Shown: piece by piece, positions 9,107 through 13,169 of the stretch
Numbering within the stretch: position 1 is the stretch's first letter
Layout of the letters: each line of letters starts with the position of its first letter
Assembly (NCBI GenBank): GCA_965198235.1
Contig: OZ240248.1
Coordinates: 4,768,001-4,832,000 of the forward strand
DNA length: 64,000 bases
Direction of reading: 5' to 3'
DNA from: Candidatus Poribacteria bacterium
GTDB lineage: Bacteria; Poribacteria; WGA-4E; WGA-3G
Position numbers and translations under genes: made by a program
Notes under the pieces: generated by a model
The model's database searches: none
What the model was told of the DNA's origin: nothing
What the model saw: the letters and a program-made list of their open reading frames with translations, nothing else

Positions 9107-10396
9107 TTATGCGGCTTTCGCAATGTTCGAGCGGGTGCCACTTATATCGAAGCAAGCGTACTGGTTCGTATTCATAATCCGGGTTGCAAACGCCATTGCC
9201 TGTTTTTCCGTGAGGTAACCGTCCGCGATCTCGGCTTCAAGGGCGCGTCGAATTTCGTTTCTCGCTTGAATCGCATACGCCATGGCACTGGTCGGCCACC
9301 CTGTATCGCCGCCGAAAGCGAACAATTTATTTGACGGAACAGCATGGATGCACCGGCGGAGGAAATCACGCGAACTATACGGATCGATGCTCCACGCCCA
9401 GCAGAAGTCAACCCAAATATTACGATAATGCTTGGCGAGTGCGACGAGTTCATCGTTATAAGGGTAGGCGATGTGCATCAATACAAACTTCGCGTCGAGA
9501 TACTGAGCGAAAAGGGCACACATGTTGCCCGCAGGGATACGTCGCACCGGCATCCGATCATTGCCTGCATAATAACCGGTGTGAATTTTGAAAGGGAGAT
9601 TGTGTTCAATCGTGAGTTCAACGCCTCGCGCCCAGCACCAATCGCCGAGGCAGAGCCGCGTCGCTTCGTCAACCTCTGCGGCAGGTTTTGTGAGCACAGC
9701 ATTCAGGGCAGTAGAAGCCTCAGCATCGCTCCTTTCGCTCCAGTTGAGTGTGCGATTGTAAGCGTGTTGTGATTTTACAGCGATAGCACAAGGGGCGTGC
9801 TTGGCGAAAATCGCCGCCATAGCGGACTTGAGGGAAGCGAGGTCGTTGACTTCAACACCTGTCTCGGCGTGGATAGCACTTGGATCAACCTGTCCGTTAC
9901 AGAATGTTGCCCATGAGAGATCGTAGAGAAAAAAATCCGGACCGGATGTGTCTGGTGTGCACTGCCAACTGAAATCATCTGTTTGAATGTGATCGAGGTT
10001 TGCGATGTCGTGTAAAATGTGATAACGTTTGCCGGGAGTGCGAAGCGTCTTTAGGTTATGGGCACCCGCGAGTCCATCGCCTGTCAGTTCGTCAAGTCCG
10101 TAGATGTGTTTTGCGATGAGACTGACTGCTTCGCCGTATCCAGTAAATTGTGTCGCTTCCCACGCGTCTCGGATACCTTCAAACCGTGATGCAATGTCTT
10201 GAGAAGCGTCCATCAGGTTGCGCATCGCTTCTGGGGAGGCACCGGCTGTTACCAGGTCGGCAGGGACGTAGTTTCCGAATAGATCTTGGAGGATATCGGG
10301 TCCATTCTCAACCCATTCGGCTTCGCGCTTCATGTGTTCGTGCGTGTCAACAAGGCGAATAGATTGAATGTGATGTGTCAAATCGGTGGTTTCCAT
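9107..10396 (-). CDS. Amidohydrolase family protein
   Basis: 'VDTHEH' HxH motif, 'KIHTG', 'VLMH', 'FGGD'. Confidence 0.8.
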   Translation of the reverse strand: METTDLTHHIQSIRLVDTHEHMKREAEWVENGPDILQDLFGNYVPADLVTAGASPEAMRNLMDASQDIASRFEGIRDAWEATQFTGYGEAVSLIAKHIYGLDELTGDGLAGAHNLKTLRTPGKRYHILHDIANLDHIQTDDFSWQCTPDTSGPDFFLYDLSWATFCNGQVDPSAIHAETGVEVNDLASLKSAMAAIFAKHAPCAIAVKSQHAYNRTLNWSERSDAEASTALNAVLTKPAAEVDEATRLCLGDWCWARGVELTIEHNLPFKIHTGYYAGNDRMPVRRIPAGNMCALFAQYLDAKFVLMHIAYPYNDELVALAKHYRNIWVDFCWAWSIDPYSSRDFLRRCIHAVPSNKLFAFGGDTGWPTSAMAYAIQARNEIRRALEAEIADGYLTEKQAMAFATRIMNTNQYACFDISGTRSNIAKAA

Positions 10397-10451
10397 GCAA
10401 AGTCTCCTTTAAAAACTGAGTATAGACTGTCCATAGTCTCATACTTGATAC

Positions 10452-10480
10452 TTGACAAATACGTTGAATTATGATTTAAT
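10452..10480 (+). promoter_or_regulatory. Sigma70-type promoter upstream of the CSD-Hfq-like gene
   Basis: TTGACA-17 nt-TTTAAT with an extended TG. Confidence 0.55.
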
Positions 10481-10558
10481 AGATAATGTCTTGGCAATTT
10501 ACCTCTCTTTTCAGTGTTGTAGGACGGAGTTGGTTCCGAAAAAGATGAGGTCTGCTCT

Positions 10559-10588
10559 ATTGTATAAAGGGTAGCGTTGTTGTGTCAA
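10559..10588 (-). promoter_or_regulatory. Sigma70-type promoter facing the amidohydrolase gene
   Basis: Minus strand TTGACA-18 nt-TACAAT. Confidence 0.5.
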
Positions 10589-10841
10589 GAAAAACCGCAA
10601 ATTCGGTAGAGCCTATTGATGTTGGGCTTTCCGCTGCTTTTAAGCAGTGCGTCATAACCTGACGGTTGCCTCATATACTATGAAGTACACGATTTCGCGC
10701 GCCAACTTACGATACAGATTAACGGCTCTGGCAAGTTCGGGAGAGTCCCTCGCAGGCTCCCCGTATGGAAAAGGAATGCTCGCGCAGGAACGCGAATGGT
10801 TAACGTCACCTTCCTGAAAAGGGACAAGACCGCAGGAGCAT

Positions 10842-11804
10842 ATGATGCCTACAGGACGGATTAAGTACTACAATTTCGATAAAGGCTTCGGATTTATTGC
10901 GCAAGATAGTAGTGATGCGGATGTCTTCTTACATAGTTCTGCTATTAAGCAGCCCGAATACGAAGAACTCCGTGTCGGACAGCGCGTAAAGTACAGCATT
11001 ATTGAAGGTGAGAAAGGGCTCGTTGCCCAAAACGTCGAAGTATTGTTGACACCGACGGAACGCCGATGGCTACGGCAAGGAAAGGCAATTATTCCGAGAG
11101 GTTACGCTGGCTTTCCGGGTCAGGGTCAGGGCCAATTTATCAGTGATGAGGCAATGCCTGCCTCTAATTATGGTGCCGACAAATCAAAGCCGATTCGGAA
11201 TCGCCGTGACCATGATACATCTGTAGCACCTTCGGGCCCGACAGCAAAACCAGCACGCAATCAACGTCACTCGGCGACGGATTTTAACGATTCCGCAGCA
11301 CCAACACAAGAGGCACAAGACCCGTCTTCAAAGCAACTCAGTTTTGGTGATCTTTATATCCTTAAGCAGATTAATTTTGAAACATCCATGTTTTTTGCGT
11401 TGTATACTCACGTACAACTGCCTGCTACCGTCCTTGAAATGACGCTCTCCAGTTTGACACTCAATAGTAATGAGGGCGAGCAGCAGATCGCTAAAACGGA
11501 TGTTAAATACTGTTATAAAGACATTGATGCAGAGAAAGTTCAAGCATCCGTTGATATCGATGATGCTGTGAAGGCGCAGCAGTTGACACAACTAACCGCT
11601 GATGTGCAAGCCCCAGAGATTGATACCGAAGCCGTTCAGCACGCCCGAAAAAATGGAACCTCGATTGAGGTTATACTCCGTGAGGGAGAGATCTTTCGTG
11701 GCGTTATAGACTGGGTCAGTCCTTATGAGATTAAGCTCATTTTAGATAACGGCTCAAAGGTTGTTATCTTCCGGCATGCTGTGTACAGCCTTGCCATAGA
11801 TTAG
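10842..11804 (+). CDS. Cold-shock domain fused to C-terminal Sm/Hfq-like domain(s)
   Basis: aa 1-68 form a CSD with RNP1 KGFGFI and RNP2 VFLH. aa 262-318 align by eye to Hfq, with an Sm2-like FRHAV. aa 166-226 may be a second, divergent Sm fold. Confidence 0.75.
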   Translation: MMPTGRIKYYNFDKGFGFIAQDSSDADVFLHSSAIKQPEYEELRVGQRVKYSIIEGEKGLVAQNVEVLLTPTERRWLRQGKAIIPRGYAGFPGQGQGQFISDEAMPASNYGADKSKPIRNRRDHDTSVAPSGPTAKPARNQRHSATDFNDSAAPTQEAQDPSSKQLSFGDLYILKQINFETSMFFALYTHVQLPATVLEMTLSSLTLNSNEGEQQIAKTDVKYCYKDIDAEKVQASVDIDDAVKAQQLTQLTADVQAPEIDTEAVQHARKNGTSIEVILREGEIFRGVIDWVSPYEIKLILDNGSKVVIFRHAVYSLAID

Positions 11805-11812
11805 GTGCGACC

Positions 11813-12382
11813 ATGAAAGCGTATCACGAACTCCTTGATGAGATTCAGCGCGATGTCGAACGTTTGCGTGAAGAATCGGGGGGTGTGCCGTGCCCATCTA
11901 ACTGCTTTTCCTGCTGCCGAAACACCGCAACTATGGCGATAAGTGAGGTCGAGGCTCGCGACTTAAAGGTCGGATTGGAAGCACTTCCTGTTGAAATCCG
12001 ATCACATATTCGTCGGAAAGCGGAACAGAGCATCAGAAAATTGGAGACGCACGGCTATGACGCTGAAAATATAATGCCGGATGCTGGCATGGAAGCCATT
12101 GGGGTCATAAAAGGCACACCCGAAGGCGAATGCCCTATGCTAATCGGTGGAGTCTGTAGTGTTTACGAACACCGTCCGGTCATCTGCCGTGTCTGGGGAT
12201 ATCCGATTCATAGTGGCAACGAATTAGCCTGTTGTCACAAAACTTTCATTGGGAAACGTCGCCGCTTCCGCCCGCTCAGTTACGATCACTATTGGAAAGT
12301 GTGTCAGGACCTTAGCACAGAGTTAGGTGCAACTCGGAAGACCCCCAACTGCTATCTCGTCTCGCGATTGTTATCGGGATAA
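11813..12382 (+). CDS. YkgJ-family cysteine-cluster (CxxxCxxCC) protein
   Basis: 'CPSNCFSCC', 'CPML...CSVYEHRPVICR'. Confidence 0.85.
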   Translation: MKAYHELLDEIQRDVERLREESGGVPCPSNCFSCCRNTATMAISEVEARDLKVGLEALPVEIRSHIRRKAEQSIRKLETHGYDAENIMPDAGMEAIGVIKGTPEGECPMLIGGVCSVYEHRPVICRVWGYPIHSGNELACCHKTFIGKRRRFRPLSYDHYWKVCQDLSTELGATRKTPNCYLVSRLLSG

Positions 12383-12466
12383 CGCAAAACATGGCTTTTA
12401 CACTTCTCTCGTTGGTGAGGTCTTGACTTCACCTTTTTTAAATTCACAACACGCCTGAAATAAAGC

Positions 12467-12784
12467 CTAAATTTCAGGTCCGCTTTCACTCAACTCACGC
12501 AAAAACTCAAACGTATAAATTCCGGTACGATGTCCATCGTTCCATACCAATCTCACGGCGTAGTGTCCGACGCGCTGAATGTCCACAAGTTGTAGGTTTT
12601 CAAAAAAATTGTCAGAGGGTAGGATGTGAAAAGGATCTTTTCCTAATCGCGTGGCATCACAACGGGCACAAGGGCATTTTTGTCGGAGGGTGCGGTAGGA
12701 CAACTCGCTGTGATGTGAATCTTTCCATTGGATTTCCAAACTCGCACTGCTTCTTTCAATACGAGTCGGTTGGAATTTCTGCAT
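12467..12784 (-). CDS. DUF971 / GBBH-like N-terminal domain protein
   Basis: 'LRQKCPCARC', 'VGHYAVRLVWNDGHRTGIY'. Confidence 0.85.
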   Translation of the reverse strand: MQKFQPTRIERSSASLEIQWKDSHHSELSYRTLRQKCPCARCDATRLGKDPFHILPSDNFFENLQLVDIQRVGHYAVRLVWNDGHRTGIYTFEFLRELSESGPEI

Positions 12785-12911: not shown

Positions 12912-13169
12912 TTATTCAAAGTACTCCGCATTGATCTCAATGAACTCTTCCCATTCTTCGGGAACATCTTCTTCCATGAAGATGGCTTCGACGGGGCATT
13001 CGGGTTCACATACACCACAATCGATGCACTCTTCCGGGTCGATGTAGAGTTGATTGACTTCTTCAAACTCATCGGCATCGGGTAGGGGGTGAATGCAGTC
13101 CACTGGGCATACATCAACGCATGAACTGTCCTTAAGATCGATACATGGTTCACAAATCACATACGTCAT
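12912..13169 (-). CDS. Ferredoxin (7Fe/dicluster FdxA-like)
   Basis: 'MTYVICEPC...CVDVCPVDC...CIDCGVCEPECP'. Confidence 0.92.
   Translation of the reverse strand: MTYVICEPCIDLKDSSCVDVCPVDCIHPLPDADEFEEVNQLYIDPEECIDCGVCEPECPVEAIFMEEDVPEEWEEFIEINAEYFE

What the first reader, a model, noticed from the sequence alone, without database searches (positions are those of the whole stretch)
10842..11804. Cold-shock domain fused to tandem Sm/Hfq-like domains: candidate composite RNA chaperone
Seen: an intact CSD (KGFGFI, VFLH), a disordered linker of about 95 aa, then 'AVQHARKNGTSIEVILREGEIFRGVIDWVSPYEIKLILDNGSKVVIFRHAV'. This follows the Hfq pattern: helix, conserved Sm1 glycines, and an Sm2 [Y/F][K/R]HA[I/V] motif. 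aa 166-226 show similar helix-strand spacing without the Sm2 motif. Known: CspA melts RNA structure and Hfq forms hexameric rings that anneal sRNAs to mRNAs, normally as separate small proteins. Inference: three chains could build an Hfq-like pseudo-hexamer with alternating canonical and degenerate subunits and three tethered CSDs, giving a melt-and-anneal machine. I do not know of a characterised protein with this architecture.
Basis: partly seen in the sequence, partly recalled or inferred. Interest (0 to 1): 0.85.

Follow-up and report, generated by a model that had tools for sequence, protein, structure and literature searches.

The report
Cold-shock domain fused to tandem Hfq
A sponge-symbiont bacterium carries one gene that joins a cold-shock RNA-binding domain to two back-to-back copies of the Hfq RNA-chaperone fold, and this fusion appears to stand in for the separate cold-shock and Hfq proteins of other bacteria.

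Summary
ORF 10842-11804 (+), with a likely true start at 10845, encodes four parts. These are a cold-shock domain (Pfam E 1.2e-19), an invariant basic helix motif, a disordered linker of about 80 aa, and two Hfq-fold domains. The C-terminal domain is a sequence-detectable Hfq homolog: the family profile hits solved Hfq at E 4.7e-10, and the model fits at Z 8.3, rmsd 1.0 A. The middle domain is a diverged duplicate (hhalign 95.7%; Z 7.9, rmsd 1.4 A to Caulobacter Hfq).

The organism is a Candidatus Poribacteria sponge symbiont. The tandem-Hfq module was found in 169 of 176 genomes of the phylum. In the window's own genome this gene holds the only CSD and the only Hfq-like domains, and no ProQ or CsrA was found.

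The tandem-Hfq module is also a wider unnamed family with other partners (HTH, GmrSD and others).

The proposed trimeric pseudo-hexamer is plausible but untested, because the one complex prediction gave no verdict. No paper describing this architecture was found.

I read it as a new variant of a known kind: a composite Csp/Hfq RNA chaperone.

The parts
10762..10841 (+). Proximal 5' leader with the Shine-Dalgarno AGGAG at 10834-10838. It is conserved within the genus.
   Evidence: the last ~75 nt before the start are near-identical in 5 of 5 same-genus loci, including L007-L009, whose sequence further upstream is unrelated. AGGAG lies 6 nt before the ATG at 10845. No Rfam match and no significant fold (z -0.36).
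10845..11804 (+). Coding sequence of the CSD-tandem-Hfq protein (319 aa from the second ATG; the ORF opens at 10842). The stop codon is at 11802-11804.
   Evidence: (P0001, 319 aa, 100% identical).
10851..11039 (+). Cold-shock domain (aa 4-66) with RNP1 KGFGFI and RNP2 VFLHS.
   Evidence: Pfam PF00313 E 1.2e-19; CspA structures 1mjc/2l15 at 3.5e-13; five strands E4-11, 16-21, 27-31, 48-55, 60-67 in the model.
11043..11117 (+). Post-CSD basic motif LLTPTERRWLRQGKAIIPRGYAGFP (aa 68-92) with a short helix at aa 71-78.
   Evidence: 99.8% column identity among 18 sequences; pI 11.55; kept as LLTPxExxxLRQGKxxIPR in distant Poribacteria clusters P0121, P0125, P0131 and P0135; helix H71-78.
11118..11327 (+). 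Variable, predicted-disordered linker (aa 93-162).
   Evidence: pLDDT below 50 for aa 84-129 and 131-163; 54% mean identity and length variation.
11328..11528 (+). Hfq-N (aa 163-229): the first, degenerate Hfq-fold domain. AKTDV stands in place of the Sm2 YKHAI-type motif.
   Evidence: Helix plus five strands. VIA Z 7.9, rmsd 1.4 A over 63 residues to 6gwk Hfq. Hfq fills the top 7 of 48,161 chains in the unbiased search. hhalign to the C-domain profile gives 95.7%, E 9.3e-9. 91% identity in A1. Not detected by Pfam in the window protein or in 10 relatives tested.
11529..11624 (+). Inter-domain connector (aa 230-261) with two short helices.
   Evidence: H227-236 and H241-245 in the model; 76% identity.
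11625..11801 (+). Hfq-C (aa 262-320): the second, canonical Hfq-like domain. It has the Sm1 glycines G282 and G287, Y295, and the Sm2 motif FRHAV (aa 310-314).
   Evidence: Pfam Hfq_1 4.5e-5 and Hfq 1.1e-3; 27.0 bits, at the cut-off, in the six-frame genome search; family profile against PDB Hfq 4.7e-10; Z 8.3, rmsd 1.0 A over 59 residues; G282 invariant in 76 sequences.
11813..12382 (+). Downstream gene, probably co-transcribed: a CxxCxxCC cysteine-cluster protein (189 aa).
   Evidence: 8-nt gap. Pfam PF03692 E 2.6e-4, below the cut-off. Found next to the fusion gene in 5 of 7 usable distant Poribacteria loci (L012, L014, L016, L018, L019; not L013 or L017; L015 ends at its contig end).
12414..12433 (+). 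Terminator-like hairpin followed by a T-run, after the two-gene unit.
   Evidence: 8-pair stem, then TTTTTT. This is a consensus match only.

Best explanation
The gene encodes a 35.5-kDa composite RNA-binding protein of Candidatus Poribacteria.

Shown:
- It has an N-terminal cold-shock domain, an invariant basic helix motif and a flexible linker of about 80 residues.
- It then has two Hfq-fold domains that arose by internal duplication. The second keeps the Hfq Sm1/Sm2 signature. The first has lost the His and the aromatic residue of the uridine pocket, yet it is the more conserved of the two.
- The gene is a near-universal, syntenic gene of the phylum.
- In this genome it is the only carrier of either a CSD or an Hfq fold.

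Inferred:
- It is the lineage's general RNA chaperone. It would combine the single-strand binding and melting activity of Csp proteins with the RNA-docking and annealing platform of Hfq.
- The Hfq domains would assemble through the usual beta4-beta5 edge pairing into a closed ring. Three chains forming a pseudo-hexamer with alternating canonical and altered sites is the most economical form.
- The CSDs would be held on long tethers above the ring.
For: Architecture:.

Organism: named homologs are Candidatus Poribacteria, and one record is filed under the sponge Geodia barretti.

Conservation: the module is found in 169 of 176 genomes of the phylum, and in 132 of 133 of the high-quality ones. 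The CSD is on the same frame in the distant loci L012-L014 and L016-L019.

Sole carrier in this genome: the own genome (96.3% complete, 2 contigs) has one CSD match and one tandem-Hfq match. No other Hfq or LSm match falls below E 0.01, and there is no ProQ or CsrA.

The window's family f1: 22 of 38 sampled genomes have a single CSD match. No f1 match lies in a frame under 184 aa, except one at a contig end. Other families also keep 67-109-aa Csp frames.

Complementary pattern: G001 and G003 lack the module but have Hfq matches in 92-104-aa frames.

RNA-site residues kept in Hfq-C, read from the HMMER alignment to Caulobacter Hfq and from A1: Y295, R311, H312, R269 and K270. Numbering against E. 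coli Hfq is recalled.

Domain conservation: Hfq-N is 91% conserved against 80% for Hfq-C, so it is under constraint and not decaying.

Expression: contigs of four sponge metatranscriptome libraries (one study) cover the gene at 95% identity or more, in 30 of 30 bins for X1. This is weak, since such contigs do not prove transcription.
Against: - No oligomer or RNA-binding evidence exists for any member.
- The protein is acidic overall (pI 5.38) and Hfq-N has pI 4.83, which is unlike a typical RNA-binding surface.
- The position aligned with the proximal-face Gln of Hfq is Asp, and the distal-face aromatic is Ile/Thr (alignment; residue roles recalled). Hfq-like RNA site specificity may therefore not be kept.
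- The window protein scores better against Hfq_1, the 'Hfq related' cyanobacterial type, than against Hfq. As I recall, cyanobacterial Hfq binds RNA poorly.
- Two of 18 close orthologs have FRPAV instead of FRHAV.
- Relatives of the module are fused to HTH or GmrSD domains, or sit beside an unrelated large ORF. The module is therefore not tied to chaperone roles.
- The complementary pattern with stand-alone Hfq rests on only two genomes.
Confidence: 0.6

Rival explanations
1. The domains are the same but the assembly differs. Either the canonical Hfq-C domains alone form a homo-hexameric ring with Hfq-N and the CSD hanging outside, or the two Hfq folds pack against each other into a closed intramolecular pseudo-dimer that does not form rings. 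The protein is still an RNA binder, but not a trimeric pseudo-hexamer.
For: The two-domain model has pTM 0.86, so a fixed intramolecular packing is predicted. I could not inspect the coordinates to see whether it matches neighbouring protomers of an Hfq ring. No solved chain among 48,161 representatives covers both domains; the longest alignment is 78 residues. Hfq-N has lost the pocket residues.
Against: Sm/Hfq domains characteristically close rings through edge strands (established knowledge, recalled), and a tandem repeat halves the chain number needed. Hfq-N is more conserved than Hfq-C, which fits a structural role inside an assembly.
Confidence: 0.22
2. The Hfq-like part is mainly a protein-interaction or regulatory platform, as reported for cyanobacterial Hfq. 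Only the CSD binds RNA, so the protein is a cold-shock/antitermination factor with an oligomerisation or docking domain.
For: The best HMM matches are Hfq_1 'Hfq related' and NCBIfam Hfq_rel_Cyano. Hfq-N and the interdomain segment are acidic. The proximal-face Gln and distal-face aromatic positions are changed. Linkage to a CxxCxxCC protein is conserved in 5 of 7 usable distant loci.
Against: Hfq-C keeps the Sm2 Arg-His, the Tyr of the uridine pocket and two basic rim residues. No other Hfq, ProQ or CsrA was found to fill the sRNA-chaperone role.
Confidence: 0.12
3. The tandem-Hfq unit is a nucleic-acid ligand sensor of the Sm-like/WYL kind, used in stress or conflict systems. The CSD fusion would be a regulator responding to single-stranded nucleic acid and not a general chaperone.
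For: Family members carry XRE-type HTH domains (4 of 68), GmrSD_N (2 of 68) and other partners, and triple CSD-Hfq2-HTH proteins exist (P0123, P0128). The Uabimicrobium member is overlapped by a 503-aa ORF. WYL-domain regulators appear among the structural neighbours at Z 5.3-5.7.
Against: The Poribacteria CSD form has no DNA-binding or effector domain. It is single-copy in the own genome and syntenic, and the module is present in 132 of 133 high-quality genomes, which is typical of housekeeping genes. Hfq ranks far above WYL proteins in both fold searches.
Confidence: 0.06

Closest known systems
Hfq (bacterial Sm-like RNA chaperone; Pfam PF17209, and the related PF21979 Hfq_1)
   Same: Both C-terminal domains have the N-terminal helix plus five-strand Sm fold, with rmsd 1.0-1.4 A to solved Hfq. 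Hfq-C keeps the Sm1 glycines and an FRHAV Sm2 motif, and it is found by sequence profiles.
   Different: There are two Hfq folds on one chain, the first lacking the Sm2 His and the pocket aromatic. They are fused behind a CSD and a long linker. The HMM score is at or below the curated cut-off. The proximal Gln and distal aromatic positions are changed. The oligomer state is unknown.
CspA-family cold-shock proteins (PF00313)
   Same: The N-terminal 66 residues are a standard CSD with RNP1 and RNP2 motifs (E 1.2e-19; CspA structures at 3.5e-13).
   Different: Bacterial Csps are typically free-standing proteins of about 70 aa. Here the CSD carries a 250-aa extension, and in the window's family no small free Csp frame was found in the sample.
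ProQ (FinO-like domain, linker, then a C-terminal domain once modelled on Hfq)
   Same: Two RNA-chaperone-type domains are joined by a flexible linker in one polypeptide. This comes from passages of PMC3808355 read.
   Different: The N-domain is unrelated (FinO, not CSD). The ProQ C-domain is a single small barrel, later described as Tudor-like (recalled), not a sequence-detectable Hfq, and it is not duplicated. No ProQ was found in this genome.
Stand-alone tandem-Hfq proteins of about 165 aa in metagenomes, and their fusions to HTH or GmrSD
   Same: They have the same two-domain module, aligned over query residues of about 12-168. JGI names some of them 'sRNA-binding regulator protein Hfq'.
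   Different: They have no CSD. They are uncharacterised, and only their second domain is recognised by Pfam: of 10 tested, 7 show one Hfq stretch, always the C-terminal one, and 3 show none.
Pseudo-hexamers built from tandem-domain trimers (for example BMC-T shell proteins, or PCNA against the beta-clamp)
   Same: This is a concept only: duplication of a ring-forming domain lets three chains make a six-unit ring with alternating, specialised sites (recalled knowledge).
   Different: The folds are unrelated, and no such assembly has been shown here.

Membership tests
Cold-shock domain (PF00313) | HMM match above the curated cut-off | tested here: met
   70.4 bits against a cut-off of 27, aa 4-66; 73.5 bits in the genome search.
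Cold-shock domain (PF00313) | RNP1 (K/R-G-F-G-F-I) and RNP2 (V-F-x-H) nucleic-acid-binding motifs | tested here: met
   KGFGFI at aa 14-19 and VFLHS at aa 28-32 in the translation. Both are invariant in A1. The motif definitions are recalled.
Cold-shock domain (PF00313) | Five-stranded OB-type beta-barrel | tested here: met
   Five strands between aa 4 and 67, with block-mean pLDDT of 81-93 for the blocks covering aa 1-70. No separate fold search of this domain was run.
Hfq (PF17209 / PF21979), C-terminal domain aa 262-320 | HMM match above the curated cut-off | tested here: inconclusive
   Hfq_1 scores 23.9 bits and Hfq 19.0 bits on the protein (cut-off 27), and 25.4 bits on the module. In the six-frame search it scores 27.0 bits and is marked over the cut-off. 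Of 68 family members, 48 match Hfq (best 1.7e-20), and the family profile hits PDB Hfq at 4.7e-10.
Hfq (PF17209 / PF21979), C-terminal domain aa 262-320 | Sm fold: N-terminal helix plus a strongly bent five-stranded sheet | tested here: met
   H262-271 and five strands. Z 8.3, rmsd 1.0 A over 59 residues to 4y91 Hfq. Foldseek's top hits are Hfq, with TM 0.89-0.90 normalised to the target.
Hfq (PF17209 / PF21979), C-terminal domain aa 262-320 | Sm1 glycines and Sm2 [YF][KR]HA[IV] motif | tested here: met
   G282 is invariant and G287 and H312 are at least 90% conserved in 76 sequences. FRHAV is at aa 310-314, and 2 of 18 close orthologs have FRPAV.
Hfq, middle domain aa 163-229 | Sequence-level homology to Hfq | tested here: inconclusive
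   No Pfam Hfq match to this domain in the window protein or in 10 relatives. The profile-profile match to the family's own C-domain is 95.7%, E 9.3e-9.
Hfq, middle domain aa 163-229 | Sm fold | tested here: met
   Z 7.9, rmsd 1.4 A over 63 residues to 6gwk_A. Hfq takes the top 7 of 48,161 chains (Z 7.1-7.9). Z below 8 is called middling by the tool, but the rows are all Hfq and cover the whole domain.
Hfq, middle domain aa 163-229 | Sm2 motif with Lys-His | tested here: not met
   The window has AKTDV, so the Lys (K218) is kept and the His is replaced by Thr. Distant relatives have KH or KT at this place.
Hfq (whole protein) | Homo-hexameric ring | tested here: inconclusive
   The only job run returned no verdict (see Tried and rejected).
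Hfq (whole protein) | Binds U-rich and A-rich RNA and speeds sRNA-mRNA annealing | not testable with these tools
   This needs purified protein. Only residue conservation could be read.
Flag1_repress / FljA (PF03614) | HMM match | tested here: not met
   No match in the own genome at E up to 10. One relative (P0168) scores E 0.094, 13 bits against a cut-off of 24. None of 27 homologs of P0168 carries PF03614.

The most novel reading that the evidence does not exclude
Across most of a bacterial phylum, the separate Csp and Hfq chaperones have been replaced by one polypeptide. Three copies of it close a pseudo-hexameric Hfq ring with alternating canonical and re-specialised sites, and each copy carries a tethered cold-shock domain. 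This would be a self-contained machine that melts and anneals RNA, and the first natural tandem-Hfq ring.
Probability: 0.3. Interest if true: 0.85.

Novelty: new variant of a known kind. Interest (0 to 1): 0.7.

Why it matters
Hfq and cold-shock proteins are the two best-known general RNA chaperones of bacteria. As far as I know they have always been studied as separate small proteins.

Here a whole lineage of uncultivated sponge symbionts joins them in one chain and duplicates the Hfq fold. In the window's family, no free copies were found in the genomes sampled.

If the ring model holds, it gives a natural experiment on three questions:
- How Hfq's six identical sites can be split into two kinds.
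- How melting and annealing activities cooperate.
- How post-transcriptional control works in Poribacteria, where no ProQ or CsrA was found in this genome.

It also shows that tandem-Hfq proteins are a widespread unnamed module. Current annotation labels them only 'cold shock protein', 'Hfq' or 'hypothetical'.

Tried and rejected
- Complex prediction: three copies of module residues 12-171, with alignment A2, gave 'no answer' (score 0.00 in both runs; controls not run). This is neither support nor evidence against.
- Rfam: a scan of 10300-12600 at E up to 1 gave no match, so no cspA-type thermosensor or other known leader was found.
- Leader fold: the conserved leader 10762-10850 folds no better than shuffles (z -0.36). 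I make no structured-RNA claim.
- FljA lead: the protein-atlas feature search put clusters carrying Flag1_repress (FljA) at 0.89-0.90. It was not borne out and I dropped it.
- LSM family search of the genome: there was one weak partial hit (E 0.017, 26 positions) inside a 909-aa frame elsewhere. I did not follow it up.
- The two weak Hfq hits at E 1.2 and 2.1 were treated as noise.
- The search for related loci with A2 failed because no stretch was conserved enough. I repeated it with the closer alignment A5.
- The search for homologous proteins with A2 listed only close Poribacteria fusions in its top 120 of 300 hits, so it added nothing on distant taxa.
- Model coordinates are not exposed to scripts. 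I could not check whether the predicted packing of the two domains equals that of neighbouring Hfq protomers.
- Sun, Zhulin and Wartell 2002 (NAR 30:3662) is not held. My memory that it noted repeated Hfq motifs in one protein is unverified. A citing paper says only that some species have two hfq genes.
- Supplementary files of papers were closed and were not consulted.
- Parts of the gene without cover in RNA runs X2-X4 are not interpreted.
Full report
**What is there**

The window holds an intact 320-codon ORF at 10842..11804 on the + strand. Pfam places a cold-shock domain at aa 4-66 (E 1.2e-19). It gives sub-threshold matches of aa 263-316 to Hfq_1 (E 4.5e-5, 23.9 bits against a cut-off of 27) and to Hfq (E 1.1e-3). 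NCBIfam agrees, with CspE/CspD/CspA-type models at 1e-19 to 1e-17 and Hfq_rel_Cyano at 1e-4. So does a sequence search of solved structures: CspA at 3.5e-13, and the Hfq-like proteins 5dy9 and 2qtx at about 2e-3.

The start is probably the second ATG, at 10845:
- The identical database protein has 319 aa, and homologs start MPTGR.
- Two of five same-genus loci read ATAATG at this place.
- AGGAG at 10834-10838 is better spaced for the second ATG.

**Organism and conservation**

A search with aa 150-320 found 258 proteins. The 120 listed are all 251-323 aa long and 74-100% identical. All but one of them carry a precomputed CSD tag, and a minority also carry PF21979. Where named, they are 'Candidatus Poribacteria bacterium', and one is filed under the sponge Geodia barretti.

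Identity among 18 such sequences, by segment:

| Segment | aa | Identity |
|---|---|---|
| CSD | 2-67 | 97% |
| Basic motif after the CSD (LLTPTERRWLRQGKAIIPRGYAGFP) | 68-92 | 99.8% |
| Linker | 93-162 | 54% |
| Middle domain | 163-229 | 91% |
| Connector | 230-261 | 76% |
| C-terminal domain | 262-320 | 80% |

The basic motif recurs as LLTPxExxxLRQGKxxIPR in distant Poribacteria clusters.

**The two C-terminal domains are both Hfq folds**

A scan with aa 150-320 of 1.84 billion cluster representatives gave 121 hits at E up to 1e-3. Most cover both the middle and the C-terminal domain, in proteins of about 150-480 aa and a few that are longer. I aligned 67 of these 121 hits with the window fragment. 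The 67 were chosen by hand as those covering most of the module. Of the 68 sequences:
- 48 match Pfam Hfq (best 1.7e-20) and 28 match Hfq_1.
- 13 carry a CSD, 4 carry XRE-type HTH domains and 2 carry GmrSD_N.

A profile of this alignment hits 37 PDB sequences, all Hfq or Hfq-like. The best is Caulobacter Hfq at 4.7e-10, and only the C-terminal domain is matched. Pfam sees only that domain in 10 relatives as well: 7 of them show one Hfq stretch and 3 show none.

The middle domain is nevertheless related. Its profile aligns to the C-domain profile with 95.7% probability, E 9.3e-9.

AlphaFold2 on the module (68-row alignment) gives pLDDT 93.9 and pTM 0.86, with two units of one helix and five strands. 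The fold searches gave:
- Foldseek ranks Hfq first (1kq2, E 1.5e-4, TM 0.89 normalised to the target).
- VIA-align places module residues 112-171 on Thermotoga Hfq (Z 8.3, rmsd 1.0 A, 59 residues). It places residues 17-79 on Caulobacter Hfq (Z 7.9, rmsd 1.4 A, 63 residues).
- An unbiased pass over 48,161 chains again puts seven Hfq entries on top (Z 7.1-7.9). It finds no chain that covers both domains.

The full-length model (76 rows, pLDDT 77.4) has a confident CSD, a helix at aa 71-78, pLDDT below 50 for aa 84-129 and 131-163, and the confident tandem module.

**Residues**

Hfq-C keeps G282, G287, W291, Y295 and FRHAV (aa 310-314). G282 is invariant in 76 sequences, and G287, H312 and K218 are at least 90% conserved. 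Aligned to Caulobacter Hfq:
- The Sm2 Lys-His corresponds to R311-H312.
- The pocket aromatic corresponds to Y295.
- Two basic rim residues correspond to R269-K270.
- The proximal Gln position is Asp, and the distal aromatic is Ile/Thr.

The roles of these positions are recalled from the Hfq literature.

Hfq-N has AKTDV in place of the Sm2 motif and Ser at the aromatic position. More distant relatives have KH or KT, and Tyr.

The protein is acidic overall (pI 5.38). The post-CSD motif is strongly basic (pI 11.55) and Hfq-N is acidic (pI 4.83).

**Genomic context and distribution**

The own genome is 5.17 Mb in 2 contigs and 96.3% complete. In it:
- This gene is the only CSD match.
- It is the only match to the tandem-Hfq profile.
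- It is the only Hfq or Hfq_1 match below E 1.
- There is no convincing LSM, no ProQ and no CsrA.

Across the phylum the module is present in 169 of 176 genomes, and in 132 of 133 high-quality ones. It is missing from the three genomes of the two most distant families. Two of those three (G001, G003) were in the Hfq sample, and they carry Hfq matches in 92-104-aa frames. That is the size of ordinary Hfq.

CSD matches were found in 59 of 61 sampled genomes. In the window's family, 22 of 38 genomes have a single match. No listed match lies in a frame shorter than 184 aa, apart from one at a contig end. Other families also have 67-109-aa Csp frames.

Several genomes have extra Hfq-matching frames of about 155-225 aa, which are probably CSD-less tandem-Hfq paralogs. 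The own genome has none.

A CxxCxxCC cysteine-cluster gene follows 8 nt downstream, and a terminator-like hairpin follows that gene. The same neighbour is found in 5 of 7 usable distant loci, and a small ferredoxin-like gene lies nearby in 7 of 8.

A pattern scan of species genomes with the closer alignment A5 returned 19 loci. Thirteen are named Candidatus Poribacteria, five 'uncultured bacterium', and one Candidatus Uabimicrobium. The Uabimicrobium module sits behind a helical N-terminal region with no CSD.

Contigs from four sponge metatranscriptome libraries of one study cover the gene at 95% identity or more. This fits expression but does not prove it.

**How it most likely works**

Shown:
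- The domain order is CSD, basic helix, flexible tether, then duplicated Hfq.
- The gene is conserved across the phylum.
- It is the sole CSD and Hfq carrier in this genome.

Inferred:
- The protein takes over both chaperone roles.
- The CSD binds and keeps RNA single-stranded.
- The Hfq part oligomerises into a ring that docks RNAs and promotes pairing.
- The tether lets the CSD reach RNA held on the ring.

A trimer forming a pseudo-hexamer is the simplest ring for a tandem repeat. It would alternate three canonical and three altered sites. The high conservation of Hfq-N argues that the altered unit has its own constrained job, either an interface or a different ligand.

Rival readings are another oligomer form, a protein-docking role like that reported for cyanobacterial Hfq, and a ligand-sensing role as in WYL-type Sm-like domains. 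The evidence for and against each is set out under the rival explanations.

**Comparison with what is known, and novelty**

Each part belongs to a known family: the CSD fully, Hfq-C by profile and fold, and Hfq-N by fold and profile-profile only. What is not described, as far as I could find, is the combination.

Literature searches gave no paper on such a protein. The searches covered Hfq with cold-shock domain/fusion/tandem, Poribacteria with Hfq and Poribacteria with cold shock. They also covered 'tandem Hfq', 'two Hfq domains', 'duplicated Hfq', 'tandem Sm domains' and 'Hfq repeats', and 'Hfq-like domain', 'CSD-Hfq', 'Csp-Hfq' and 'PF21979'. I saw listings and abstracts only. The library lacks most subscription journals, and supplements were closed.

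The nearest conceptual relative is ProQ. Passages of PMC3808355 describe it as a FinO-like domain and a C-terminal domain modelled on Hfq, joined by a linker.

Database pipelines already tag some members with PF00313 plus PF21979 and name them 'CspA family cold shock protein'. The sequences are therefore known, but the architecture is unremarked.

I rate it a new variant of a known kind, with interest 0.7.

Noticed in passing
window 11813-12382 (+), and loci L012, L014, L016, L018, L019: A 189-aa CxxCxxCC cysteine-cluster protein (PF03692, E 2.6e-4, below the cut-off; no NCBIfam match) sits 8 nt after the fusion gene. It keeps that position in 5 of 7 usable distant Poribacteria loci. Its function and any link to the chaperone are unknown.
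   Followed up: partly
window 10762-10841: About 75 nt of 5' leader are near-identical in five same-genus genomes, even where the sequence further upstream is unrelated. There is no Rfam match and no fold better than shuffles, so this may be a protein- or self-binding site for autoregulation.
   Followed up: partly
window 12912-13169 (-); L012 7171-8164: A small ferredoxin-like ORF (85 aa, cysteine-rich; not scanned against Pfam) lies near the fusion gene in 7 of 8 distant loci. It is present as three tandem copies in L012 and two in L013.
   Followed up: no
proteins P0123, P0128, P0124, P0133, P0143, P0161: Other architectures are built on the same tandem-Hfq module. These are CSD-Hfq2-HTH(XRE) triple fusions (P0123, P0128), Hfq2-HTH (P0124, P0133), two CSDs before the module (P0143), and an 849-aa protein tagged GmrSD_C + CSD + Hfq (P0161).
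   Followed up: partly
L038 2377-4961 (Candidatus Uabimicrobium sp. chromosome): A 358-aa protein has a repetitive helical N-terminal half and a tandem-Hfq C-terminal half. It overlaps by 4 nt a 503-aa ORF of unknown family, which may be a two-gene system unrelated to housekeeping RNA chaperoning.
   Followed up: no
G001 and G003 (deepest families of the phylum): These genomes lack the tandem module but have several Hfq matches in 92-135-aa frames: three in G001, and two in G003 (plus one in a 404-aa frame). These look like multiple ordinary hfq genes where the fusion is absent.
   Followed up: no
window 12467-12784 (-): A 105-aa protein matches GBBH-like_N (PF06155, E 3.8e-25). It is conserved next to the cluster in the same-genus loci and in L012 and L017.
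   Followed up: no
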